DNA of 64,000 nt from an uncultured Verrucomicrobiae bacterium (lineage in GTDB: Bacteria; Verrucomicrobiota; Verrucomicrobiia; Chthoniobacterales; JAFAMB01). The stretch is taken from assembly GCA_963775805.1 (NCBI GenBank), contig CAVZKG010000004.1, positions 70,296-134,295 of the forward strand, read 5' to 3'. The notes below the pieces were generated by a model. The model was not told the DNA's origin. It searched no databases and was given only the letters and a program-made list of their open reading frames with translations. Position 1 is the first letter of the stretch. Each line of letters starts with the position of its first letter. Below, piece by piece: positions 41,961 through 64,000 of this stretch. A program made the position numbers and the translations under genes.

Positions 41961-43588
41961 TCCGTCGACTTCTACCGATCCTGGTTGCTTTGGCTGTTCT
42001 CCTCTCGGTCCCTTTCTTATTTCGCCATCCGCAGATTGGAACGAACGCAGCCCAGGACAAACTCGTTATTGTTTCACCGCACAACGAGGCAATTCGGTTC
42101 GAGTTCACCCGCGCTTTCTCGGATTACTACCAGAAATTGACCGGGCGCACCGTCTACATCGATTGGAGGTTACCAGGCGGTACCACCGAGATTGTACGAT
42201 ATCTCAATTCGGAATTTGAAGCTTCGTTTCGCGACGAATGGACCCGGAAGTTGAAGCGCCCCTGGACCCGTGAAGTCCTGGACGGTTATTCCAACTCCCA
42301 TTTGAACGCAGAAGTTGACGCCGGTTCAGATGCTCAACGCGCTCGATTCGCATTTCTCCATTCCAATGCCGGGTGCGGGATTGATTTGCTATTTGGCGGC
42401 GGGAGTTTCGACTTCATCAATATGGCTGGCCGTGGTCTTTTGGTGAATAGCGGGGTGCTGGCTCGGTTCCCTGAACTTTTCAGCGGAACAGGGGATTTAT
42501 CCATTCCTCGAACGCTTGGAGGCGAGCAGTTCTGGGATTCCGAAGGGCGCTGGACCGGCGTTTGTCTTTCCGATTTTGGGATTTGCTACAACACCGATAC
42601 TCTGCGTCGACTCGGAATAACCGTGCCGCCGACTCAATGGGTTGATTTGCAGGATGGCCGATTCTTTAATGCGATTGCGCTGGCAGATCCCACAAAAAGT
42701 GGATCGGTCGCCAAAGCGTTTGAACTGATTATTCAGCAGCAGATGAGTCAGCGACTAACAGAGCTGATCTCCTCGAACTCTGGTCTGCAAAAGACTGAGT
42801 TGGAAAAACAGGCCGTCCGTGAGGGATGGGCAAGGGGACTTCAGCTCCTGATTCGGCTTGCAGCGAATTCTCGATACTTCAGCGATGCCGCTCCGAAAAT
42901 CCCTATCGATGTCGCCTATGGAGAGGCCGCTGCTGGGATGTGCATCGATTTTTATGGCCGGTTCGAGAGCGAAGCCGTGGCCGACAACAAGGGCCGAAGC
43001 AGGTTAAAATACGTTGGTGTCGTCGGTGGAACCTCCGTTGGAGCCGATTCTATCGCGCTGTTGCGCGGGTCTCCGCACTCGCAAGTGGCGAAGGCTTTCA
43101 TTGATTTTGTTCTCACCGAAGAAGGCCAAAAACTCTGGAACTATCGGGTTGGTACACCCGGCGGTCCCGTGCGATTTGCGTTGAGACGACTTCCGATTCG
43201 CAAAGAGTTCTACCGACCGCCGCTTCAAGCATTCATGGCCGATGGCGACGCCGATCCCTATCGTTCGGGCCACGCTTTCGAGTACCACGAAGCGTGGACG
43301 GCGCCACTATTTTCCGCCATTCGGTTTCTGGTTCAGGTGATGTGTATTGATTCCCGCGAAGAGCTTGTGGCGGCTAGAATGAAAATCGGCAATCAGTCCT
43401 TCGATTCGCCCGCCTTTCAAAAACTGACCGATGTATCGCGCGTTCGTTATGATGTGGCGATGAGCGAAATCCGTCAGGCGCTCCAGTCGGCAGACCGCTT
43501 GAAAGAAGTTCTGCTGGCAGAAGAATTAACGACCTGGTTTCGTAATCAATATCGGCAAGCTGGAGGGCTGGCTGAACGGAGCAGATGA
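41957..43588 (+). CDS. ABC transporter periplasmic substrate-binding protein (family-1 / iron(III)-type), unusually long at 543 aa
   Basis: N-terminal signal/anchor: MIRRLLPILVALAVLLSVPFLF. It is coupled by ATGA overlaps to the ATPase upstream and the permease downstream. Family assignment rests on context and general composition only. Confidence 0.65.
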   Translation: MIRRLLPILVALAVLLSVPFLFRHPQIGTNAAQDKLVIVSPHNEAIRFEFTRAFSDYYQKLTGRTVYIDWRLPGGTTEIVRYLNSEFEASFRDEWTRKLKRPWTREVLDGYSNSHLNAEVDAGSDAQRARFAFLHSNAGCGIDLLFGGGSFDFINMAGRGLLVNSGVLARFPELFSGTGDLSIPRTLGGEQFWDSEGRWTGVCLSDFGICYNTDTLRRLGITVPPTQWVDLQDGRFFNAIALADPTKSGSVAKAFELIIQQQMSQRLTELISSNSGLQKTELEKQAVREGWARGLQLLIRLAANSRYFSDAAPKIPIDVAYGEAAAGMCIDFYGRFESEAVADNKGRSRLKYVGVVGGTSVGADSIALLRGSPHSQVAKAFIDFVLTEEGQKLWNYRVGTPGGPVRFALRRLPIRKEFYRPPLQAFMADGDADPYRSGHAFEYHEAWTAPLFSAIRFLVQVMCIDSREELVAARMKIGNQSFDSPAFQKLTDVSRVRYDVAMSEIRQALQSADRLKEVLLAEELTTWFRNQYRQAGGLAERSR

Positions 43589-45375
43589 ATGCTACACTTC
43601 CAGCCGGCGATCCGGGCGAAAAAAGCTTTATTGCCCTCCGAATACTCGATCGCATGCGGGTTTCCCTGCACTCCGTTAAAGGGGTTTCCCGCTGGAGCTT
43701 TTCTCTTTACATCGGGTCAATCCTGTTTTTCGCGATTTTCCTGCTCCTGCCAATTGCCGTGGCTGTTCAAGGCGCGTTTACCGACCAGACAGGCGCGTTT
43801 ACTTTCGCCTATATCAGCGAGGTTTTTCGGAACCCGATTTATGTCGAAGGTTTTGTAAACGCTTTAAAACTCGCAATCGGCAGTACGGTTCTCGCATTTC
43901 TCATTGCTGCTCCTTTGGCTTGGATCAGCCAGAGATTCGAGTTCCCACTGAAGGGTGGTTTGTCGGCCTTTTTGTTATTTCCAATGATGTTGCCGCCGTT
44001 TGTTGGGGCAATTGGATTCAGGCAGCTTTTCGGCCAGGAAGGATCCGTTAACGCCATACTCCACGGTGTCGGACTGCTTCAGCCCGATCAAGTAATCGAC
44101 TGGTTCAGCGCCGGACGCGAGTGGGGCATCGTATTGCTGAACGCGCTCCATCTCTATCCGATTCTGTACCTCAATATTGTCGCGGCGCTTGCCAATGTGG
44201 ATCCGGTCCTGTCAGAGGCTGCAGAAAATCTCGGTTGCACGGGCTTCCGCTTGGCTTGGCGAGTGACTCTGCCGCTGGTGATGCCAGGCATTTTTTCCGG
44301 AGGGAGTATCGTTTTCATCTGGGCCTTCACTGAACTCGGCGTGCCATTGATGTTCGATTATTACCGGGTCACGCCCGTTCAGATTTTCAACGGGTTAAGC
44401 ACAATCGATAGCAACCCGTTTACGTATGCCCTGGTCACTGTGACTCTTGCCGGTTCGGCTCTGATCTATCTGGCCATCCGATTTTTTGCCGGTACCCCGT
44501 CGCCCGCGATGCCTGGTCGCGGTGGGCATTTTGGACAAATTGTCCATCTGAGAGGAGTCCGGGGTCTCCTCTGCACTTTTTTTTTCCTGCTTGTTGCCGG
44601 CACAGCCCTTCTACCTCAGATCGGTGTAATTCTCGTGTCCTTCTCCAAGGATTGGTACCGGTCTGTTCTTCCCCATTCCTTCACCCTCGAACACTACGCT
44701 TATGCTCTCGGAAACGATCTTACGGTGCCCGCCATTAAGAATAGCCTCGTGTACGCCTCGTTATCGACTGCTCTTGATTTATTGCTTGGGGTTTCAATCG
44801 CTTGGTTGATCACCAGAACGCGAATTTTCGGGCGGACGCTGCTCGATGCGCTGACAATGCTTCCGCTTGCCGTTCCGGGTCTCATTCTGGCCTTCGGGTA
44901 TCTCGCTCTTACTCGATCCGGCAGCCTTCTAAGCTTTCTGACACCGGCGGGAAGCCCCCTCATCCTCCTGGTTCTCGCATACGCGGTCCGTCGAATCCCG
45001 TATGTAGTCCGCTCCGCCGTGGCAGGCTTTCAACAAGCCAGCGAAACGCTCGAGGAAGCCGCACAAAGCGTGGGAGCCACCCCAATCCGCGCGTTGACAC
45101 GCGTCACGATTCCGTTGATTAGCGCCAATCTTTTCTCGGGCGCAATCCTCGCGTTTGCGTTTGCAATGTTGGAGGTCTCCGATTCTCTCCTTTTAGCCCA
45201 GAAACAGGCGGATTATCCCATCGCCAAAGCCACCTATGAGCTCTCAAACATTCTTGGCGAAGGCCGTTATCTTGCGGCCGCCCTCGGCGTCTGGGCGATG
45301 TTCTTTCTCGGTCTGACGATCGCCGCCGCTGCTCAAGCAATCGGTGGACGCTTGGGTGCACTATTTAGGGGATAA
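43585..45375 (+). CDS. ABC importer permease, duplicated (two fused transmembrane domains, FbpB/ThiP-like)
   Basis: 596 aa with about 12 hydrophobic segments. There are two EAA loops: LSEAAENLGCTGFRLAWRVTLPLVMPG and LEEAAQSVGATPIRALTRVTIPLISAN. Confidence 0.88.
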   Translation: MNATLPAGDPGEKSFIALRILDRMRVSLHSVKGVSRWSFSLYIGSILFFAIFLLLPIAVAVQGAFTDQTGAFTFAYISEVFRNPIYVEGFVNALKLAIGSTVLAFLIAAPLAWISQRFEFPLKGGLSAFLLFPMMLPPFVGAIGFRQLFGQEGSVNAILHGVGLLQPDQVIDWFSAGREWGIVLLNALHLYPILYLNIVAALANVDPVLSEAAENLGCTGFRLAWRVTLPLVMPGIFSGGSIVFIWAFTELGVPLMFDYYRVTPVQIFNGLSTIDSNPFTYALVTVTLAGSALIYLAIRFFAGTPSPAMPGRGGHFGQIVHLRGVRGLLCTFFFLLVAGTALLPQIGVILVSFSKDWYRSVLPHSFTLEHYAYALGNDLTVPAIKNSLVYASLSTALDLLLGVSIAWLITRTRIFGRTLLDALTMLPLAVPGLILAFGYLALTRSGSLLSFLTPAGSPLILLVLAYAVRRIPYVVRSAVAGFQQASETLEEAAQSVGATPIRALTRVTIPLISANLFSGAILAFAFAMLEVSDSLLLAQKQADYPIAKATYELSNILGEGRYLAAALGVWAMFFLGLTIAAAAQAIGGRLGALFRG

Positions 45376-57424: not shown

Positions 57425-60400
57425 CTACCGTAGCCAGACTTCAACGCGCCGATTTTGTTCGCGGCCCTCCTCTGTATCGTTCGGAGCGACCGGCATGGCT
57501 TTCCCGTAGCCGGTAATAAGCGCCGGATTGAGATTTTGCTTTTTCAGTTCTTCCGCGACGACTTGAGCGCGTATCTTCGAGAGCCTGGTGTTTGATCTTG
57601 TTCCACCGATGTTATCCGAGAACCCGAACAACAGCAAAGTTTTGCCTTGGTAAGCAGGACTTTGAAGCAATTCGATCAATCTCCGCACATTCTCCATCGC
57701 TTCGTCGTCAAGCCGGGTGCTCCCCGGATGAAAATGAAGGATGATGTTCAGCTTTCCGGCACCGCGGGCGTCGTCCGCATACCCAGGCGGTGCGTCGGCA
57801 GGGATTACAGGACTGACTAGTTCAATTTTCTGACTCGAGAATTGCAGCCGCCCAATGTTGCTCGCGCCCATATTCTTGGCGGCCTGAACCAGCGCGGTGG
57901 CGAATGTGTCGACGTTCTTATTCTGAACGAACAGTGTAACCGCGTCGTTTAAAGCCTTCTGGAAAGACTCCGGGGCCGCGCCTCCGTGAACACAGCTCGC
58001 AACGAGTTTGTCCTTCGCGAACTCGTCCATTGACCATTGGTGGTATACGTCAAATTTTGACTTGTCTACGTCTGTCCTTGCCGGAATAGAACCTTTCAAA
58101 GGATTGAAGGCTTCCTGAGCTTCCTTGCTGCCGATGCTTTTCAACCACGCGATCGCCGATTCTTTATGCGGCGCGCCTTTCGCGAGCGTAAATCCATCCG
58201 CAACGATAATAAATGATCCGCTGGTTCCTGGATGGTTTACCCACCCGAAGTCCTGATTCTCCTTGAGATTGGCTTTGATGAACTCGCCGTCCGCCCAATC
58301 TCCCATCGAGTTGAACGCAACTTTACCGTCCATTAATTCCTTAACCGCCTGGTCCCAGGTAAGATTGGCGTGATCCGGGTTAATGTAGCTCTGCATCTTC
58401 GCGAAGTACTCCATCGCCTTTTTCACTCTCGGATCGTCCCATCTCGCGCGACCGCTAAAGAGATCAGCCCAATCTTGGGGACCGACTACGCCAAGAAGCG
58501 TATTTTCGAAAAGCTGGGCCGAAGCCCAGATCCCGGAGTCACCCACCCCGAGCGCTGGAATGCCAGCCTGCTTCAATTTGTCGCAAATCGCGAAGAACTG
58601 GTCGAATGATAAATCGCCACTGATTTTAATTCCGTATTTTTCCAGTAACTTCTTGTTGTACCAGAGAACGTTGCCGTGGTGTACACCGGTTAACACGGCG
58701 TAGGCTTTGCCGTCTTGGGACACCATGTCGACGAGTGCTTTTGGATAGGCTTTGTTCCAGTCGTCACTTTGATATAGCTCGGTGATCGGGTCGCAGTAAC
58801 CCGGCGCAACATATTGGCCGATCAATTCCCAACCAGGATGCGTTTGCCAGGTATCGGGCGGGTTATTGACCGCCAGTCGAGTCTGGAGAACCGGTTTGGC
58901 GCCGCTGCCGCCGCCGCCTGCAACGGTGGCGTTGATGATTCCCACACCAGGATATTGTTGTTTGTATGTATTGAACAAAGCGTTGAGCGCCGCCGCTTCA
59001 CCGCCGGATGTCCACCAGGAAAAAACCTCCAGCTTCGGACGTGTGAATTCAACGAACTTGCGCGTCCAGTTGTTTTGAGGATTCGCCGGAATATACAGAT
59101 AAAGCCGGCGGGAGAGAGGGTACGATTGGGTGGCGATAGAGAGCGTTGTCGGCAGAATCGGTTTTCCGGCAGCATCGGCGATTCCGAGAACTTTTGTGCT
59201 TCGTGAAAAGGATTGGCCGGTTAAGCCGATTCCATTCGGATCGGTTGCGACCGCATCGGCAAGCCTCGCGTTGTCTTCAAAACGGGAAGCGCGCGCCGAG
59301 ATCTTTTGCGAACCGAGCACCAACGAATTAAACGTATCCAGCGTACCGGAATTATCATCGGGAGCGTAGAGATAGATTGGACCTGAAGTGCCGCCTAACT
59401 GCGACCAGTCATTCGTCTTACCGGTGAAGATGTCTGCCAACTGCTGTTTCGTTAATGAATTAACCGGATTGTTCCGATTGACGACGATCGCAATTCCGTC
59501 CAGGCCCAGAAGATTCTGGCTCGTTGACGAAGTTAGGTTCCCAAGTCCGGCCGCAGCACATTTGTTGGACTCGTCCGAATTGATAGGGCGAGATGACATG
59601 GCAATGTCGCAGTTGCCACTGGCGAGATCTTGGAAGCCGGTCGAGGAACCGTGCGCTTGAATCTCGAACGTGACGTTCTCGTTAGACTCGCCCGGCAACA
59701 CCGCCTCGATCTCAACTTCATCATCTCTGGAGCCCGGCCTCAGCTGCACAGAGGTTGCTCCTTCGTATTTCAAAAAATCTTCGCACAAGGTCGGGATCAG
59801 CTCTTTCCCGATCGTATTTGAGCCATGGAGTCGTAGCGCGATCTTGTGATCGGCCGGACTTGGAAGAGTTGGTGGGGGAGCAGGGGTGTTTGCCGGTGCC
59901 GGCGCAGGAGTAGAAGCTTGTGCTATAACAGGTGTTGGCTGCGCCGTGACCGGAGCAGGCTGGGAAGTTTGTGTCGCAGTCGGGGCCGGCCGCGGAGATG
60001 CTGGAGCCGCTTGAGCAGCCGGTTCTCCACCTCCTTGTGAACTTGCGTTGATAACCCGGAGGCTCGCAAACTCCCAGGTATTCTGCGTGTTCTGGGCCGA
60101 CCCTCCCGAAATTCCGACGCAGCCGCCGCCTTGCGGCGGCTGACCGTTGATGCTGATGATCTGTTTATCGTTTATGTAAGCTGTCGCCTGGCGACCTTTG
60201 GTTACGACTCGGAGCTTGTTCTCTTGGCCAATGCCTTTGTTGATTGCCGTGCTTTCAGTCCACCCAACAGGAGTGAGCCATCGATCCGTCACGAAATGAC
60301 TGATCTTGAAAGAACCATTTGCTGAAATACTAAAACAATAAAAATTAGAGTAATCTTTTGCCCAGAATATCAGCCCGCCCGGCACGACGGGGTCTCCTGC

Positions 60401-60664
60401 CGCCAGCTTGATGTCGAGCTGAATATCGGCATCGTCGAAAACATTCGACTCATTCAGGACGCTCTGTGTCGTGTTCAGCACCGGCTTGAGCACTAACTTT
60501 CCATCCTTTACGCTCAGGATATCACCCGCCGTTCCCCAACTCGGGTCGAGGTTTGTAAAATCATCCTCGTAGAGGACGTCTGCCCCGTATGTGTATTTCA
60601 CGGAAGTAGAAATCAGAAATGCGATAACTACGGAAATGCAGGCTTTATAAACTGTCGGCTTCAT
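57425..60664 (-). CDS. Secreted four-domain fusion: LamG/DUF1080-like jelly-roll, Pro/Ala/Thr linker, PstS-like phosphate-binding domain, carbohydrate family-1 SBP domain, OmpA-like peptidoglycan-binding domain
   Basis: Signal: MKPTVYKACISVVIAFLISTSVKYTYG. Jelly-roll: aa ~30-205. Linker: aa 210-270 (PAPTATQTSQPAPVTAQPTPV...). PstS-like: aa ~272-540 (LHGSNTIG...GFQDLASGNCDIAMSSRPI...LGLDGIAIVVNRNNPVNSLTKQQLADIFTGK...YPLSRRLYLYIP). Sugar SBP: aa ~543-935 (LEVFSWWTSGGEAAALNALF...DTWQTHPGWE...). OmpA-like: aa ~970-1079 (FHPGSTRLDDEAM...LLLFGFSDNIGGTRSNTRLSKIRAQVV...NRRVEVWLR). Confidence 0.8.
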   Translation of the reverse strand: MKPTVYKACISVVIAFLISTSVKYTYGADVLYEDDFTNLDPSWGTAGDILSVKDGKLVLKPVLNTTQSVLNESNVFDDADIQLDIKLAAGDPVVPGGLIFWAKDYSNFYCFSISANGSFKISHFVTDRWLTPVGWTESTAINKGIGQENKLRVVTKGRQATAYINDKQIISINGQPPQGGGCVGISGGSAQNTQNTWEFASLRVINASSQGGGEPAAQAAPASPRPAPTATQTSQPAPVTAQPTPVIAQASTPAPAPANTPAPPPTLPSPADHKIALRLHGSNTIGKELIPTLCEDFLKYEGATSVQLRPGSRDDEVEIEAVLPGESNENVTFEIQAHGSSTGFQDLASGNCDIAMSSRPINSDESNKCAAAGLGNLTSSTSQNLLGLDGIAIVVNRNNPVNSLTKQQLADIFTGKTNDWSQLGGTSGPIYLYAPDDNSGTLDTFNSLVLGSQKISARASRFEDNARLADAVATDPNGIGLTGQSFSRSTKVLGIADAAGKPILPTTLSIATQSYPLSRRLYLYIPANPQNNWTRKFVEFTRPKLEVFSWWTSGGEAAALNALFNTYKQQYPGVGIINATVAGGGGSGAKPVLQTRLAVNNPPDTWQTHPGWELIGQYVAPGYCDPITELYQSDDWNKAYPKALVDMVSQDGKAYAVLTGVHHGNVLWYNKKLLEKYGIKISGDLSFDQFFAICDKLKQAGIPALGVGDSGIWASAQLFENTLLGVVGPQDWADLFSGRARWDDPRVKKAMEYFAKMQSYINPDHANLTWDQAVKELMDGKVAFNSMGDWADGEFIKANLKENQDFGWVNHPGTSGSFIIVADGFTLAKGAPHKESAIAWLKSIGSKEAQEAFNPLKGSIPARTDVDKSKFDVYHQWSMDEFAKDKLVASCVHGGAAPESFQKALNDAVTLFVQNKNVDTFATALVQAAKNMGASNIGRLQFSSQKIELVSPVIPADAPPGYADDARGAGKLNIILHFHPGSTRLDDEAMENVRRLIELLQSPAYQGKTLLLFGFSDNIGGTRSNTRLSKIRAQVVAEELKKQNLNPALITGYGKAMPVAPNDTEEGREQNRRVEVWLR

Positions 60665-60731
60665 ATTTCGTCCATGGGGTGGGGAACCAGATTTACGGCG
60701 GGTTTTTCCTGCCGAGTCCTGATGCGTGGCC

Positions 60732-63700
60732 TTACTGATTTGGGGGCTCGGCCGGAGAAGACAATGGTTGAGTTGAAGTTTTCGCTCCGGGGTTTTGACC
60801 CGCGTCTAGTGGCAAGGAAATGCCTGATCGGCCCGTCGCTGCAGGTTCCTTGTTCTGGGGATCGGCCGTTGTAGTACCGTTCGACGTCGGGTGCACCTGG
60901 GCCGCGACCAGATCCGCGATCTTTTGCGCCAACTCTGCTTTGTTCTCGGCCTCCTTTAGTTTGGCTTCTAACAAATCACGCCCGCTTGTTACTTCATCGG
61001 CCTGTTGTCGGGCTGTTCGCGCGTTTGCTTCTGATTTTGCGAGTTGCGCCTCCAAAGCCGAAGTTCGAGCAATAGCCTGACTCGCGTTCTGTACGGCCGA
61101 TTCCAACTTCTCCTGAACCTGCTTGAGTTGAGCTTCAAAATCAGATCGTTGAGCCGCGGCTGCGGCGGATACCTGCTGACTTTGCTGGAGCTTGCTCCTG
61201 GCATCCTTCAACTGCGCTTCGAGACCCGACCGCTGCGTAGCGGTAGTGTCAACGGTTTGCTGAGCCTGAACGAGTTTGTCCTGCGCTTCTTTTAGTTGAG
61301 CATCAACGGACGCGAGCTTTGATGTGGCCGCATCTGCGGCCTGCTGGTTTTGCGCCATCTTCTCTTGCGCCTGCTTGAGTTGTGACTCCAGGGAGGAACG
61401 TTGTGCAACCGCTGACTCCGCAGCTGCTTGGGCTGATTGGAGATTGTCCTGCGCTTGCTTCAGCTGCACCTGAATGTCGCCGCGCTGATTTGCCATTTGT
61501 TCAGCGGCTTGCTGCGAGACCTGAAGTCTATCCTGGGCCTGCTTGAGCTGAGCCTCCAGCAATGAACGCTGAGCCGAAACTGATTCTGCGGCCTGTTGAC
61601 TCTGTTGGAGCTGCTGTTCTACCTGCTTAAGTTGAGCCTCCAGGTTGGTCTGAAGAGACTTCGATTGATCCGGTGTCCGTTGAGCTTCTTCAAGTTTGTC
61701 CTGAACCTCTTTGAGTTGGGTTTCCAAGGACGAACGTTGAGCAGTGACGGCGTCGGATGCTTGCTGAGATTGCTCAAGCTTGCTCTGGGTCTCCTTTAGC
61801 TGCGCTTCAACTACAGACCTTTGTGTCGTGGCCGCCTCGGCTCTCAGCTGAGACTGTTTGAGTTTCTCCTGAGCATCCTTTAGTTGAGCGTTGACGATCG
61901 TGAGCTGAGAAGCGGCAGTTTCAGCGGTCTGTTGGTTCTGCTGAAATTTGTCCTGCGCTTCTTTTAGCTGCGTCTGCAGAGCAGCGATCTGTGAAGCGGC
62001 AACGCCGGAAGCCGCTTGCGCCTGCTGCAATTTTTCTTGGGAAGTTTTTAGTTCCGCTTCGGACGCCGAACGTTGGGAGGTTGCAAGGTTGGCTCCCCGT
62101 TCAATCTCTTTTAGCTTGTCCTGCAGGGTCTTGATTTGAGCCTCGAGCGCCGAACGTTGAGACGAAACTTTCTCTCCTTCCTTCTGGCTCAGTTGCTCTT
62201 GATCCGAGCCGTGGCCGTTGTGGGCGAGCTCTGCGATTTTTCGCTCGAGATTGCCGTACTCCAGGATGATCGCTCTTTTTCCATCGCTCGTAAGGCGCTG
62301 AACTGCTGCGATTGTAGCGACGCAAGCCAGCGCGACAAGGACCGCGACAAGCACTCCGTAAGTGGTTCGTCGGCTGCGTTTTTGGTCGGTAATGCTCTTC
62401 TCGATATATTCAATCTGTGCCGCGGAGAGCGAGGCGTGAAAATGGTTTAGCAGGGTCTCGCCATCCGCGAGACTCAGGCCAGGAGTCAAAAGATCATGTG
62501 TTCGTTTCCCATTCTTGAGCCAAAGCTTCATGCAACCGTCAACCCGGTCCCGCATCCGAACGAACTCCTGGTCTGCGTTCAGCCATTCCTGTACTCTTGG
62601 CCAATTTCGAAGAAGCGCCGGATGGGCGACCTGAATCATCAAATCCTGTTTGTGATCTGCCTCGGTGCGAAAGAGACCCTCGGAAACCATGGCATCCACG
62701 AAGGCTTGCGCGCCGGTTTGGAGATGGCTATCCAGTTCACGCGATGAAATAAGATCTCGGTATGGCACCAGGCGGCAACCGGCGCGCCCGTCATGATCAA
62801 GAAAAACGAGCCTGCGCATGACGAAGTCGAACGTCTGTTGGGCCTCGATGCTCAGCGAGTTGAAAACTCTTTCGGCGTGATTCGATAATGCACCAGCAAA
62901 CCCGTCCAAATCTTGATAGTCGGCCCATCGCAATAGCCCATCTTTGCGAACGGTCTGTCGGGCGTATAATTGCGAAAGCAAATACTCGAGCAGTGGCAGG
63001 GAATCAGCAGAAGCGAGAGCCGTATCGACAAGTTTGTCGTCGAGGCTTTGACCGGTTTTCGGCTCCGTTTCAAATCTTAATCCAGCGGCCTGCGCTGGAG
63101 ACCGGATCATCCGGCCGTATTCGTCTCGTGTTGGAGCCTGCAGGTCGAAACGTCCGCTTGGGTTCGTTAAGGCGATCAGCTCAGGAAATTGTTGGTATGA
63201 ACTGTAGTATTCACTTCGCAACGCGGCGAGCACATGAACCCTTTGGCTGTGAACCAAAGCCGAGATGGCCGAAATGAAATCCTGTTGCGTCTTTTCCGGG
63301 TAGTTGCCCGAAAAAAGATCCTCGAGTTGGTCAACAAAGATCGCGAGTTGCGCTTTCGGTTTCGCCCTGCGAAGTCTCCGGTGCCGGGCTAGCTCCACGC
63401 TCTCAATCCGACCGGTTGCCGGTGACAGCTCCTTTTCCCGGATAATAAGTGAATTCAGTTCTTCCGTGCTGATCTGATCGAGAATTTCCCCGATCCGGGC
63501 CGCCAATGCACCCGGGTGGTCCTTGAGTTCAGCGGCGAGTGTTTGAAGCGCCTCTTCGGATTTGCCTTGTTGAAGCTCCGGCAACGCCTTGTCAGATAAA
63601 AGCGCGGCGGCCAGCGCAACAAAGGGATCGGTTGCAGAACCGGGTCGTGCGATTGCCCGGCGCCACGGACCTTCTCCCATAACGGTCGCCAACTCCCCCA

Positions 63701-64000
63701 AAAGCGGGAGAACTCCCCCTCGGATCAGTGAAGATTTTCCTGAGCCGCTCGGACCCAGGACAAGAACAAACGGTTTTCTTCCAATTGCCTGTTCGTTGAG
63801 AGCGTCAACAACTGCGCCGATTGCTTTCGTTCGCCCATGGAAAACTGGCGCATGCTCAAAATCGAAAAATTGGAGTCCGCGGAACGGGTCGAAATCCCAC
63901 GACCTTCCGCTCGCCGGAGTCTTGCGAGGAACAATCTCGTTCTCAACCTGTCTCTTAAGGAAAAGGCGGAAGTGCTCTCGAAAAAGAGACTCAAATTCTT
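60732..64000 (-). CDS. STAND-type (nSTAND-like) P-loop NTPase with one TM helix and a long C-terminal coiled-coil repeat array; 5' end lies beyond the right window edge
   Basis: The ORF track starts at TTG 63701, but the frame stays open to 64000. My translation upstream is ...FDPFRGLQFFDFEHAPVFHGRTKAIGAVVDALNEQAIGRKPFVLVLGPSGSGKSSLIRGGVLPLLGELATV... Walker A GPSGSGKSS is at 63729-63755. Walker B LAIFVDQLEDLF is at ~63321-63347. The TM helix YGVLVAVLVALACVATIAAV is at ~62301-62363. Confidence 0.85.
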   Translation of the reverse strand, partial: EFESLFREHFRLFLKRQVENEIVPRKTPASGRSWDFDPFRGLQFFDFEHAPVFHGRTKAIGAVVDALNEQAIGRKPFVLVLGPSGSGKSSLIRGGVLPLLGELATVMGEGPWRRAIARPGSATDPFVALAAALLSDKALPELQQGKSEEALQTLAAELKDHPGALAARIGEILDQISTEELNSLIIREKELSPATGRIESVELARHRRLRRAKPKAQLAIFVDQLEDLFSGNYPEKTQQDFISAISALVHSQRVHVLAALRSEYYSSYQQFPELIALTNPSGRFDLQAPTRDEYGRMIRSPAQAAGLRFETEPKTGQSLDDKLVDTALASADSLPLLEYLLSQLYARQTVRKDGLLRWADYQDLDGFAGALSNHAERVFNSLSIEAQQTFDFVMRRLVFLDHDGRAGCRLVPYRDLISSRELDSHLQTGAQAFVDAMVSEGLFRTEADHKQDLMIQVAHPALLRNWPRVQEWLNADQEFVRMRDRVDGCMKLWLKNGKRTHDLLTPGLSLADGETLLNHFHASLSAAQIEYIEKSITDQKRSRRTTYGVLVAVLVALACVATIAAVQRLTSDGKRAIILEYGNLERKIAELAHNGHGSDQEQLSQKEGEKVSSQRSALEAQIKTLQDKLKEIERGANLATSQRSASEAELKTSQEKLQQAQAASGVAASQIAALQTQLKEAQDKFQQNQQTAETAASQLTIVNAQLKDAQEKLKQSQLRAEAATTQRSVVEAQLKETQSKLEQSQQASDAVTAQRSSLETQLKEVQDKLEEAQRTPDQSKSLQTNLEAQLKQVEQQLQQSQQAAESVSAQRSLLEAQLKQAQDRLQVSQQAAEQMANQRGDIQVQLKQAQDNLQSAQAAAESAVAQRSSLESQLKQAQEKMAQNQQAADAATSKLASVDAQLKEAQDKLVQAQQTVDTTATQRSGLEAQLKDARSKLQQSQQVSAAAAAQRSDFEAQLKQVQEKLESAVQNASQAIARTSALEAQLAKSEANARTARQQADEVTSGRDLLEAKLKEAENKAELAQKIADLVAAQVHPTSNGTTTADPQNKEPAATGRSGISLPLDAGQNPGAKTSTQPLSSPAEPPNQ
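60894..62162 (-). repeat. In-frame tandem repeat: 14 exact-register 84-nt (28-aa) units plus one degenerate unit, consensus about (A/S)QRSxLEAQLKxAQDKLxQSQQAAxxAx
   Basis: I segmented residues 514-936 of the ORF by hand. Every unit is exactly 28 aa (four heptads) with no indels, for example SQRSALEAQIKTLQDKLKEIERGANLAT / AQRSLLEAQLKQAQDRLQVSQQAAEQMA / AQRSSLESQLKQAQEKMAQNQQAADAAT. Confidence 0.9.

What the first reader, a model, noticed from the sequence alone, without database searches (positions are those of the whole stretch)
57425..60664. Four-domain secreted fusion: jelly-roll + PstS-like + sugar-SBP + OmpA-like, with no cognate ABC membrane components
One 1079-aa signal-peptide protein strings together several modules. 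A concanavalin/LamG (DUF1080-like) module comes first, followed by a 60-aa Pro/Ala/Thr linker. Next is a PstS-type phosphate-binding-protein fold, then a complete family-1 carbohydrate SBP, and finally an OmpA C-terminal peptidoglycan-binding domain. PstS-OmpA two-domain proteins exist as an annotated family. Here the sugar SBP appears to be inserted right after the PstS-like YPLSRRLYLYIP...KFVEFT segment and before the OmpA part, and the jelly-roll is an additional N-terminal add-on. Two different ligand-binding Venus-flytrap modules tethered to the cell wall, with no adjacent permease or ATPase, suggest a sensing, scavenging or anchoring role rather than classical transport. The gene lies beside a GH116 glycosidase and a LacI regulator.
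Basis: partly seen in the sequence, partly recalled or inferred. Interest (0 to 1): 0.6.

Follow-up and report, generated by a model that had tools for sequence, protein, structure and literature searches.

The report
Cell-wall-tethered sugar/phosphate sensor protein
A real, conserved 1079-residue secreted protein of uncultured soil Verrucomicrobia joins a lectin-like domain, a phosphate-binding-type domain, a complete glucose-binding protein and a cell-wall anchor, and is almost always encoded right after a membrane-spanning immune-type switch (STAND ATPase or TIR), so it is most likely that switch's outside sensor, not a transporter part.

Summary
ORF 57425-60664 (-) encodes a 1079-aa signal-peptide protein with four domains: a DUF1080/CBM-like jelly-roll, an S-type PstS-like domain, a full glucose-binding protein (E 2e-101 to T. 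thermophilus GBP) and an OmpA-like peptidoglycan binder.

It is not a chimera. More than 120 protein clusters from independent assemblies share the architecture. All come from one Chthoniobacterales family; none was found among 400 other genomes of the phylum.

- The GH116 and LacI neighbours are not conserved.
- The conserved neighbour is the upstream same-strand gene. It is nSTAND1 NTPase-TM-periplasmic 28-residue-repeat coiled coil in this paralogue group, and TIR-TM-coiled coil in the sister group.
- Relatives carry the PstS-like+OmpA pair fused, through one TM helix, to TIR or Ser/Thr kinase domains.

The glucose-binding module was recruited once from the family's own transporter binding proteins. 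It was placed after, not inside, the PstS-like fold.

Best reading (about 0.5): a wall-tethered periplasmic co-receptor, the sensor arm in trans, for the membrane-spanning STAND/TIR protein. This is a new variant of binding-protein-dependent signalling. The scan had already noted the pairing from the partner gene's side (e1-3345727). No ligand or interaction has been shown.

The parts
57425..60664 (-). Whole ORF, 1079 aa plus stop: secreted four-domain protein (P0001)
60584..60664 (-). Signal peptide, residues 1-27 (MKPTVYKACISVVIAFLISTSVKYTYG|AD); no lipobox
   Evidence: Read from the sequence. The N-terminus is conserved in homologues. The AF2 model shows a helix at residues 3-25.
60044..60583 (-). 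Jelly-roll / concanavalin-like beta-sandwich (divergent DUF1080 / 3-keto-disaccharide-hydrolase family, CBM66-like), residues 28-207
   Evidence: PF06439 scores below its cut-off, but all 11 orthologues tested hit it. Foldseek finds 4B1M (CBM66, TM 0.75) and 4JQT. It is among the most conserved domains, 78-85% identity between orthologues.
59849..60043 (-). Pro/Ala/Thr-rich disordered linker, residues 208-272
   Evidence: Sequence. pLDDT is below 30. No consensus among homologues.
59030..59848 (-). S-type PstS-like (PBP_like_2) domain, residues 273-545. It lacks the last ~17 residues of the fold. Pro435 replaces the usual Arg, as in SphX.
57860..59029 (-). Complete glucose/galactose-binding-protein module (CUT1 family SBP), residues 546-935
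   Evidence: E 2e-101 to 2B3B over residues 4-387 of that chain. It is 73-78% identical to stand-alone SBPs of the family. All fused copies form one clade, support 100/98.
57740..57859 (-). Linker, residues 936-975 (GRLQF...PPGY), which aligns with the PstS-OmpA linker of two-domain relatives
57428..57739 (-). OmpA C-terminal-like peptidoglycan-binding domain, residues 976-1079. The D1017...N1025..LS..R1032-A motif is kept.
   Evidence: Pfam 61.7 bits against a 27.2-bit cut-off. D1017 is invariant and R1032 nearly invariant. Foldseek finds 6JFW and 5U1H.
60665..60731 (-). 67-nt intergenic spacer between the partner gene and this ORF; no promoter-like or terminator-like site on the minus strand
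60732..64000 (-). Partner gene. It continues 604 nt beyond the window and encodes 1290 aa (P0122): unknown N-domain, then nSTAND1 NTPase, then TM helix, then 15 x 28-residue periplasmic coiled coil, then a conserved tail.
62301..62357 (-). Single transmembrane helix of the partner (residues 750-768)
60900..62237 (-). Periplasmic coiled-coil stalk of the partner, period 28 residues, ending in the tail motif LPLDAGQNP..TSTQPL

Best explanation
The ORF encodes a periplasmic protein that is held on the peptidoglycan by its OmpA-like domain. It displays three ligand-binding modules: a lectin-like jelly-roll, an S-type PstS-like anion-binding domain, and an intact glucose-binding protein.

I propose that it is the trans-acting sensor arm (co-receptor) of the protein encoded immediately upstream. 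That protein is single-pass, with a cytoplasmic nSTAND1 NTPase (TIR in the sister paralogue system) and a long periplasmic coiled-coil stalk.

Proposed mechanism: ligand-dependent closure of the binding-protein modules, or a change in their attachment to the wall, alters their contact with the stalk or with its conserved C-terminal tail. The signal passes through the single TM helix and switches the cytoplasmic STAND/TIR module.

Shown here: the domain identities, the conservation, the synteny, the predicted topology, and the covalent fusion of the same periplasmic module to signalling domains in relatives.

Inferred: physical contact between the two proteins, the identity of the ligands (a glucose-type hexose is most likely; phosphate and glycan are possible), and the direction of signalling.

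Open: whether the output is immunity/abortive-type or nutrient-responsive. I rate these two about equally likely.
For: 1. Synteny.
- In this orthologue group the nSTAND1-TM-coiled-coil gene lies directly upstream on the same strand in 10 of 10 assemblies that have enough upstream sequence (window). The gaps are 30-76 nt.
- In the roughly 60%-identical sister group the upstream gene, 1-18 nt away, is TIR_2 (E 4e-19 to 1e-20)-TM-coiled coil.

2. Topology. The partner has one TM helix after the NTPase, and its stalk carries 15 repeats of 28 residues. This ORF has a signal peptide. Both parts therefore meet in the periplasm.

3. Fusion proteins in relatives.
- A genome of the same family encodes TIR-TM-fn3-PstS-like-OmpA as one 849-aa protein.
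- A genome of the same order encodes Ser/Thr kinase-TM-PstS-like-OmpA.
- Among the 58 longest of the 150 closest PstS-like domains, 55 carry OmpA, 34 a kinase, 6 DUF4388, 3 a receiver domain, 1 TIR and 1 PilZ. None carries an ABC component.

4. Paralogues in this genome. The other nSTAND1 proteins carry WD40 arms where this partner has the stalk, and one sits beside a SIR2+TIR protein. The usual sensor position is therefore vacant in the partner.

5. The glucose-binding module is intact and constrained.
- It matches 2B3B over the full length.
- Orthologues are 81-85% identical in this module, against 54-69% for the PstS-like, OmpA and NTPase parts.
- Its branches in the tree are short.

6. Both partner families share a conserved C-terminal tail at the far end of the stalk.

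7. Precedent, from general knowledge: binding-protein-dependent receptors such as LuxP-LuxQ, ChvE-VirA, TorT-TorS and MBP-Tar.
Against: - No interaction, ligand or expression data exist. All relatives are uncultured MAGs.
- Two loci of the sister group have partners with only TM plus coiled coil and no cytoplasmic domain. This fits a structural role better than signalling.
- A third, divergent copy type in one genus has no such partner and sits among sugar-metabolism genes; one of these copies lacks OmpA.
- The partner's N-terminal domain could not be identified, so the output is unknown.
- There is no match to any known defence system beyond generic OmpA/MotB and TIR similarity.
- The glucose-binding module is so close to transporter SBPs (73-78% identity) that docking to their permeases cannot be excluded.
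Confidence: 0.5

Rival explanations
1. Wall-tethered scavenging receptor. The protein concentrates glucose (and phosphate or glycan) at the peptidoglycan and hands sugar to the ABC permeases that serve its stand-alone paralogues. On this view the link to the STAND/TIR gene is incidental or only regulatory.
For: - The glucose-binding module is 73-78% identical to stand-alone SBPs. One of these sits in an SBP-permease-permease operon in this genome.
- The fused module evolves no faster than those SBPs.
- Divergent copies in one genus lie next to oxidoreductase and isomerase genes without a STAND/TIR partner.
- Several orthologous loci have sugar permeases within about 6 kb.
Against: - Those nearby permeases belong to a different SBP type: the adjacent SBP is 24% identical.
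- There is no permease or ATPase within 12 kb here.
- The tight, strand-conserved pairing with TM-coiled-coil proteins occurs in two paralogue groups.
- The PstS-like+OmpA pair is otherwise fused to signalling domains and never, in the sample, to ABC parts.
Confidence: 0.15
2. Structural envelope complex. The TM-coiled-coil protein and the OmpA-anchored protein form an inner-membrane-to-wall tether or periplasmic scaffold, like Pal/TolR or MotB-type anchors. The binding-protein folds act as structural or polysaccharide-holding parts, not as switches.
For: - The conserved core of the partner is only TM plus coiled coil plus tail. Cytoplasmic heads vary (nSTAND1, TIR or none).
- The OmpA-like wall-binding residues are kept.
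- The stalk is very long, about 420 residues.
- The PstS-like domain has lost its C-terminal segment and several positions that are at least 90% conserved in the wider family, including the Arg and the GQ motif.
Against: - NTPase and TIR heads are signalling or effector modules and are kept intact in most loci.
- The strongest constraint falls on the two sugar-type binding modules.
- Kinase, TIR and receiver fusions of the same periplasmic pair point to signalling.
Confidence: 0.2
3. Assembly chimera or frameshift-joined separate genes.
For: None was found. Read-level data could not be examined.
Against: - The same full-length architecture occurs in more than 120 clusters from independent projects and in 22 loci.
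- There are no stops in the frame.
- GC content is smooth across the junctions.
Confidence: 0.01

Closest known systems
PstS-like+OmpA proteins (annotated 'phosphate transport system substrate-binding protein' or 'phosphate ABC transporter substrate-binding/OmpA family protein'). Typical forms are Zn-ribbon-TM-PBP_like_2-OmpA of about 500-550 aa, or kinase-TM-PBP_like_2-OmpA.
   Same: Same PBP_like_2 subfamily (40-60% identity) followed by the same linker (PPGY) and OmpA-like domain.
   Different: - This protein has a signal peptide instead of a TM anchor or cytoplasmic head.
- It has an extra N-terminal jelly-roll.
- A whole glucose-binding protein is inserted between the PstS-like domain and the linker.
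- The family-wide Arg (at least 90% conserved) is Pro, and the C-terminal 'S..GQ..V...GFV' segment is lost.
- No paper on this family was found.
Thermus thermophilus glucose/galactose-binding protein (PDB 2B3B) and Pseudomonas GtsA/ppGBP (5DVF/5DVI)
   Same: Full-length similarity, E 2e-101 and 6e-51. The long motifs are kept: SWW..GE, PPDT.Q.H.G.EL, GDWA, PGT.G.F, NPLKGSI.AR.D and VHG..APESF.
   Different: The module is embedded in a larger protein, has no signal peptide of its own, and has no cognate permease genes.
S-type phosphate-binding proteins, especially SphX of Synechocystis (PMC13614923)
   Same: - Ser at the D-type Asp position (MSSR).
- An SGT loop, with Pro exactly six residues before its Thr (P435...T441, compared with SphX P142...T148). 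The mapping was checked through C. perfringens PBP-1 R125/T131.
- Candidate Asp-Arg-Thr triad residues are present (D389, R519/R520, T284).
   Different: It scores below the PstS family cut-off (158.9 against 206.6 bits), has no pstCAB genes nearby, and its C-terminus is truncated. Binding has not been tested.
nSTAND1 conflict systems (Kaur et al. 2021, PMC8195603; 2020, PMC7159879)
   Same: The partner's NTPase is a strong nSTAND1 match, E 9e-80. Paralogues in this genome have the classic NTPase+WD40 layout, and one lies beside a SIR2-TIR protein.
   Different: - The sensor arm is replaced by a TM helix plus periplasmic coiled coil, and a separate secreted binding protein is added.
- The papers mention OmpA and extracellular PBP domains only in other systems (iSTAND, EACC1).
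Binding-protein-dependent transmembrane receptors (LuxP-LuxQ, ChvE-VirA, TorT-TorS, MBP-Tar; from general knowledge)
   Same: A periplasmic Venus-flytrap protein is encoded next to, and presumed to dock on, the periplasmic part of a membrane signalling protein.
   Different: The output is a STAND NTPase or TIR instead of a histidine kinase or chemoreceptor. The receptor part is a plain coiled coil. The binding protein is wall-anchored and multi-modular.
FtsZl1 (Tubulin_2) operons with OmpA-like proteins (Makarova and Koonin 2010, PMC2875224)
   Same: The same PstS-like+OmpA pair lies directly downstream of a Tubulin_2 gene in the same genus and class.
   Different: The cytoplasmic partner is a different NTPase. 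There the PstS-OmpA protein carries its own TM helix and Zn-ribbon.

Membership tests
PstS, phosphate ABC transporter binding protein (TIGR02136) | Score at or above the curated family cut-off | tested here: not met
   158.9 bits against a cut-off of 206.6; profile positions 63-277 of 295 are matched.
PstS, phosphate ABC transporter binding protein (TIGR02136) | Encoded with pstC/pstA/pstB | tested here: not met
   The neighbours are nSTAND1 and GH116. The nearest BPD_transp_1 domain is 12 kb away.
PstS, phosphate ABC transporter binding protein (TIGR02136) | Phosphate-contact residues of S-type proteins | tested here: inconclusive
   The GSNT, GSST, MSSR and SGT loops are present. The Arg is replaced by Pro, as in SphX, which still binds Pi at micromolar affinity.
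PstS-like+OmpA membrane sensor family | PBP_like_2 domain followed by an OmpA_C-like domain | tested here: met
   Both domains score above the Pfam cut-offs and are in the same order. The linker aligns (PPGY), with a 390-aa insertion.
PstS-like+OmpA membrane sensor family | N-terminal TM anchor with a cytoplasmic head (Zn-ribbon, kinase or TIR) | tested here: not met
   This protein has a cleavable-type signal peptide followed by a jelly-roll. The TM helix and cytoplasmic head are on the separate upstream protein.
CUT1 glucose-binding protein (GtsA/ttGBP type) | Full-length sequence similarity to solved glucose binders | tested here: met
   2B3B, E 2e-101, query 1-387 against chain 4-387. 5DVF, E 6e-51. 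Foldseek top hits.
CUT1 glucose-binding protein (GtsA/ttGBP type) | Stand-alone secreted protein in an operon with two permeases | tested here: not met
   It is an internal module. The stand-alone paralogue at C4:21431 does have that operon.
OmpA C-terminal-like peptidoglycan-binding domain (PF00691) | HMM score above cut-off and the D...N..LS..RA motif | tested here: met
   61.7 bits against 27.2. D1017 is invariant; N1025, S1029, R1032 and A1033 are at least 90% conserved. The register matches the E. coli OmpA motif TDRIGSDAYNQGLSERRA (from memory).
DUF1080 / 3-keto-disaccharide hydrolase (PF06439), concanavalin-like fold | HMM score above cut-off | tested here: inconclusive
   18.9-23.2 bits against 26.8, but 11 of 11 orthologues hit only this family. 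All-beta model. Foldseek finds CBM66 (TM 0.75) and 4JQT, on a low-confidence full-length model.
Binding-protein-dependent transmembrane signalling | Binding-protein gene genetically coupled to a membrane signalling protein that has a periplasmic part | tested here: met
   Conserved same-strand adjacency in two paralogue groups.
Binding-protein-dependent transmembrane signalling | Physical, ligand-dependent contact between the two proteins | not testable with these tools
   No multimer prediction is offered and no experiment is possible.
Known anti-phage defence systems (PADLOC) | Significant match of the components to a defined system | tested here: not met
   Only generic hits: ZorB/MotB to the OmpA domain (E 2e-6), mad8 to the P-loop, and weak TIR hits.

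The most novel reading that the evidence does not exclude
An NLR-like STAND ATPase, and in the sister system a TIR protein, read periplasmic small molecules through a recruited ABC-transporter glucose-binding protein. That binding protein is tethered to the cell wall together with a phosphate-type and a lectin-type module. This would be the first binding-protein-dependent STAND/TIR receptor. It would work as a bacterial 'outside-in' pattern, damage or nutrient receptor that couples extracellular chemistry to an immune-type switch.
Probability: 0.4. Interest if true: 0.75.

Novelty: new variant of a known kind. Interest (0 to 1): 0.56.

Why it matters
STAND/NLR-like and TIR proteins of bacteria are known as cytoplasmic sensors of invaders. 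A version whose sensing part sits in the periplasm and is built from solute-binding proteins would have three consequences:
- It would widen what such switches can perceive to sugars, phosphate, glycans and the state of the wall.
- It would give a tractable ligand, a glucose-type sugar, for probing how an nSTAND1 or TIR module is switched across a membrane.
- It would document how a transporter binding protein was recruited once into a signalling complex.

It also shows that the large, unstudied PstS-like+OmpA family, routinely annotated as phosphate transport, is mainly an extracytoplasmic module of kinases and other signalling proteins.

Tried and rejected
- **Full-length AF2 model** (53 sequences). 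Mean pLDDT was 59.7 and the sugar module was below 50. It cannot decide domain packing or the insertion question. It was used only for coarse Foldseek domain hits.
- **AF2 of the partner's N-terminal domain** from an orthologue. pLDDT was 41.6, which is unusable, so no fold search was done.
- **Other attempts to identify that N-domain.** Profile-profile comparison with the TIR domain of the sister partner gave probability 0.1. A PDB profile search gave no hit. Pfam at E<=1 gave none. Its identity stays unknown; a TIR/DUF4062-like guess from the 'IDIFVSS..D...ER' start is unsupported.
- **PDB profile search with the jelly-roll alignment.** Only chance-level hits.
- **PADLOC.** No system-level match.
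- **Literature.** Searches for PstS-OmpA, PBP-OmpA or TIR+PstS+OmpA found nothing.
- **Loss of phosphate binding.** My early idea that loss of the Arg abolishes phosphate binding was dropped after reading that SphX has Pro at the same place and still binds Pi.
- **The SBP-less permease pairs.** I considered that the sugar permease pairs without an SBP near some orthologues are served by this protein. I rejected this because their own SBP, where present, is only 24% identical, so they belong to a different family.
- **Repeats and reads.** Tandem Repeats Finder sees no DNA repeat in the stalk, although the 28-residue period is clear at protein level.


Full report
**1. The observation**

The minus-strand ORF 57425..60664 is open from an ATG for 1079 codons. 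Pfam finds three domains well above their cut-offs:
- PBP_like_2, residues 325-540, E 3.8e-35.
- SBP_bac_1/SBP_bac_8, residues 556-870, E about 3e-25.
- OmpA, residues 978-1072, E 8.8e-17.

The N-terminal domain is the weak one.
- It matches 3keto-disac_hyd (DUF1080) only below the cut-off, at 18.9 bits in the whole protein and 23.2 bits as an isolated domain, against 26.8.
- All 11 orthologous or paralogous copies tested hit that family and essentially no other.
- The AF2 model is all-beta there, with pLDDT mostly 70-90.
- Foldseek finds CBM66 (TM 0.75), GH16-type glucanases and the DUF1080-type protein 4JQT.

NCBIfam places the second domain in the PstS family but below its cut-off, 158.9 against 206.6 bits.

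- Residues 1-27 form a signal-peptide-like N-terminus without a lipobox.
- Residues 208-272 form a disordered Pro/Ala/Thr linker.
- The nearest ABC permease domains are 12 kb away, at window 43.9-45.3 kb.

**2. Not a chimera, and where it occurs**

A search of 5.8 billion proteins returned more than 120 clusters at 60-86% identity over the full length, with the same Pfam set, from JGI, ENA and NCBI assemblies. At the DNA level, 22 loci show the same four blocks in the same order.

The distribution is narrow.
- Records that carry names are all uncultured Chthoniobacterales/Verrucomicrobiae MAGs.
- In the GTDB family of the window, 41 of 42 other genomes have a match, and full-length copies occur in several genera.
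- In an even sample of 400 other genomes of the phylum, none has a full-length copy.

**3. What the modules are**

*Sugar module.* It is a complete glucose-binding protein.
- It scores E 2e-101 to T. thermophilus GBP 2B3B, aligned from residue 4 to 387 of the mature chain. It scores E 6e-51 to Pseudomonas ppGBP.
- It is 73-78% identical to stand-alone SBPs of the same genomes. One of these heads an SBP-permease-permease operon in this genome.
- In a maximum-likelihood tree of 22 fused and 24 stand-alone copies, with 2B3B as a further row and the root set at the midpoint for drawing only, all fused modules form one clade (support 100/98). That clade groups with the family's own stand-alone proteins and has short branches.
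- The tree fits a single recruitment followed by continued constraint.

*PstS-like domain.* It is of the 'S-type', with MSSR where D-type proteins have the Asp.
- The Arg that precedes the SGT loop in C. perfringens PBP-1 (R125; T131 is in the loop) is Pro435 here.
- That Arg is at least 90% conserved among the 150 closest relatives.
- The cyanobacterial SphX has Pro at exactly this spacing and still binds phosphate with micromolar affinity (PMC13614923).
- Phosphate binding is therefore possible but unproven.

*OmpA-like domain.* It keeps the wall-binding Asp and Arg: D1017 is invariant and R1032 nearly invariant.

*Constraint by domain.* Between orthologues, identity is 78-85% for the jelly-roll and 81-85% for the sugar module. 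It is 64-70% for the PstS-like domain and 62-68% for the OmpA-like domain.

**4. Insertion or tandem?**

Two-domain relatives end their PstS-like domain with '...KF(L/I)xFA(L/T)S..GQ.IV...GFV', followed by a linker with PPGY and then OmpA.
- In this protein the sugar module starts directly after 'KFVEFT'.
- After the module, the chain resumes with 'GRLQF...PPGY'.
- The sister paralogue group keeps 'KFVEFALSELGG....TGFFARKFVESAL' before the sugar module. That is a degenerate but complete PstS C-terminus.

The module was therefore placed after the whole PstS-like domain, in the linker to OmpA. This orthologue group later lost about 24 residues. The AF2 model is too poor in this region to add anything.

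**5. The conserved context**

GH116 and LacI are absent from the orthologous loci. What is conserved is the upstream gene on the same strand.

*The partner in this genome.* It is a 1290-aa protein whose start lies 604 nt beyond the window. Its parts, in order, are:
- an unidentified 238-aa N-domain;
- nSTAND1 NTPase (E 9e-80);
- one TM helix (residues 750-768);
- fifteen in-register 28-residue coiled-coil repeats (self-identity 0.42 at offset 28);
- a Pro/Gln-rich tail.

*Synteny in this orthologue group.* The same arrangement is found in all 10 assemblies with enough upstream sequence.

*The sister group.* These copies are about 60% identical and sometimes occur in the same genomes.
- The gene 1-18 nt upstream encodes TIR_2 (E 4e-19 to 1e-20)-TM-coiled coil.
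- It is intact in four loci and fragmented in two.
- It is reduced to TM plus coiled coil in two loci.
- In one locus IS elements lie upstream instead.

*Shared tail.* Both partner families end in a similar motif, LPLDAGQNP..TSTQPL and PPNPGQNAKP.PLTQTL.

*Exceptions.* Two divergent copies in one genus have no such partner, and one of them lacks OmpA.

I confirmed it independently.

**6. The PstS-like+OmpA pair elsewhere**

- In the same family, one 849-aa protein reads TIR-TM-fn3-PstS-like-OmpA.
- In the same order, a 783-aa protein reads Ser/Thr kinase-TM-PstS-like-OmpA.
- In the same genus and class, a Zn-ribbon-TM-PstS-like-OmpA protein follows a Tubulin_2 (FtsZl1) gene. Makarova and Koonin noted that last association only as 'OmpA-like'.
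- The two-domain family is large, with more than 3600 hits.
- Among the 58 longest of the 150 closest PstS-like domains in 1.8 billion representatives, 55 carry OmpA, 34 a protein kinase, 6 DUF4388, 3 a receiver domain, 1 TIR and 1 PilZ.

The pair is thus typically the extracytoplasmic part of transmembrane signalling proteins, not a transporter component.

**7. The partner's relatives in this genome**

The other strong nSTAND1 proteins of this genome carry WD40 propellers where this partner has the stalk. One of them lies beside a SIR2+TIR protein.

The closest paralogue shares the N-domain and the NTPase. It also has a hydrophobic segment aligned with the TM helix.

The position normally occupied by a sensor arm is therefore a plain coiled coil in the partner, with a ligand-binding protein encoded next to it.

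**8. Interpretation**

The best-supported model (about 0.5) is a periplasmic, wall-anchored co-receptor that supplies ligand sensing in trans to the membrane-spanning STAND (or TIR) protein. It is analogous to LuxP-LuxQ, ChvE-VirA or MBP-Tar (general knowledge).
- Shown: the anatomy, the conservation and the fusions.
- Inferred: the contact between the two proteins, the ligands and the output.
- Open: whether the system serves immunity-type or nutrient-type decisions.

Rivals:
- A structural membrane-to-wall tether (0.2). It is favoured by partners that lack any cytoplasmic head.
- A tethered scavenging receptor for ABC import (0.15). It is favoured by the closeness of the sugar module to transporter SBPs.
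- An assembly artefact (0.01).

**9. Comparison and novelty**

No paper describing PstS-like+OmpA proteins, or their pairing with STAND/TIR proteins, was found. Kaur et al. mention OmpA and extracellular PBP domains only in other systems. No known defence system matches.

I class this as a new variant of a known kind: binding-protein-dependent transmembrane signalling combined with nSTAND1/TIR modules. It is confined to one family of uncultured soil bacteria, and there is no functional evidence.

Noticed in passing
L041:7339-9960, L042:798-3374, L043:5887-8469 (other Verrucomicrobiota genomes): Proteins of 858-873 aa with an N-terminal PBP_like_2 (PstS-like) domain fused to a Na+/Pi cotransporter and a PhoU domain. 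A binding protein is thus joined to a secondary phosphate transporter.
   Followed up: partly
L039:4341-9017, L035:6522-11314, L036 (same genus / same class): A Tubulin_2 (FtsZl1) gene of 1006-1055 aa with no TM helix lies directly upstream of a Zn-ribbon-TM-PstS-like-OmpA gene. The 'OmpA-like' partner of FtsZl1 operons is therefore this PstS-like+OmpA family.
   Followed up: partly
L038:7185-9734 (-), genome of the same family: A single 849-aa protein reads TIR-TM-fn3-PstS-like-OmpA. Its PstS-like domain keeps the Arg (REAESGTRD) and the full C-terminus.
   Followed up: partly
L025:5466-16879: Tandem duplication of the whole sister module (partner gene plus four-domain gene, twice). Both partners lack the TIR domain.
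   Followed up: partly
L001:3424-9195 (= L024/L049): A group II intron reverse transcriptase and three transposase genes (two with rve integrase-core domains) lie just upstream of a sister-group copy. There an nSTAND1 gene lies convergent downstream instead of upstream.
   Followed up: no
L079:2769-9291 (own genome, contig C2 782769-789291): A SIR2+TIR protein (462 aa) lies directly upstream of an nSTAND1-WD40 protein (1726 aa). This is a classic conflict-system layout in the same genome.
   Followed up: no
L078:9838-14634 (own genome, contig C1): The closest nSTAND1 paralogue (nSTAND1+WD40, 1598 aa) has a hydrophobic segment aligned with the partner's TM helix. Its WD40 propellers might therefore be extracytoplasmic.
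   Followed up: no
window 60732-60900 and the ends of the partner genes in L004, L005, L002, L027-L031: A conserved C-terminal tail motif sits at the far end of the periplasmic stalk and is shared by the nSTAND1-type and TIR-type partners: LPLDAGQNP..TSTQPL and PPNPGQNAKP.PLTQTL. It is a candidate docking peptide.
   Followed up: partly
window 43585-45375 (+): A 596-aa ORF with two BPD_transp_1 domains, that is, a fused double ABC permease. It is the only permease in the window and is unrelated to the finding.
   Followed up: no
L032 and L033 (two long-contig MAGs): Both the four-domain gene and its TIR partner are split into several ORFs. This could be co-degradation or homopolymer errors of long-read assemblies; it was not resolved.
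   Followed up: no
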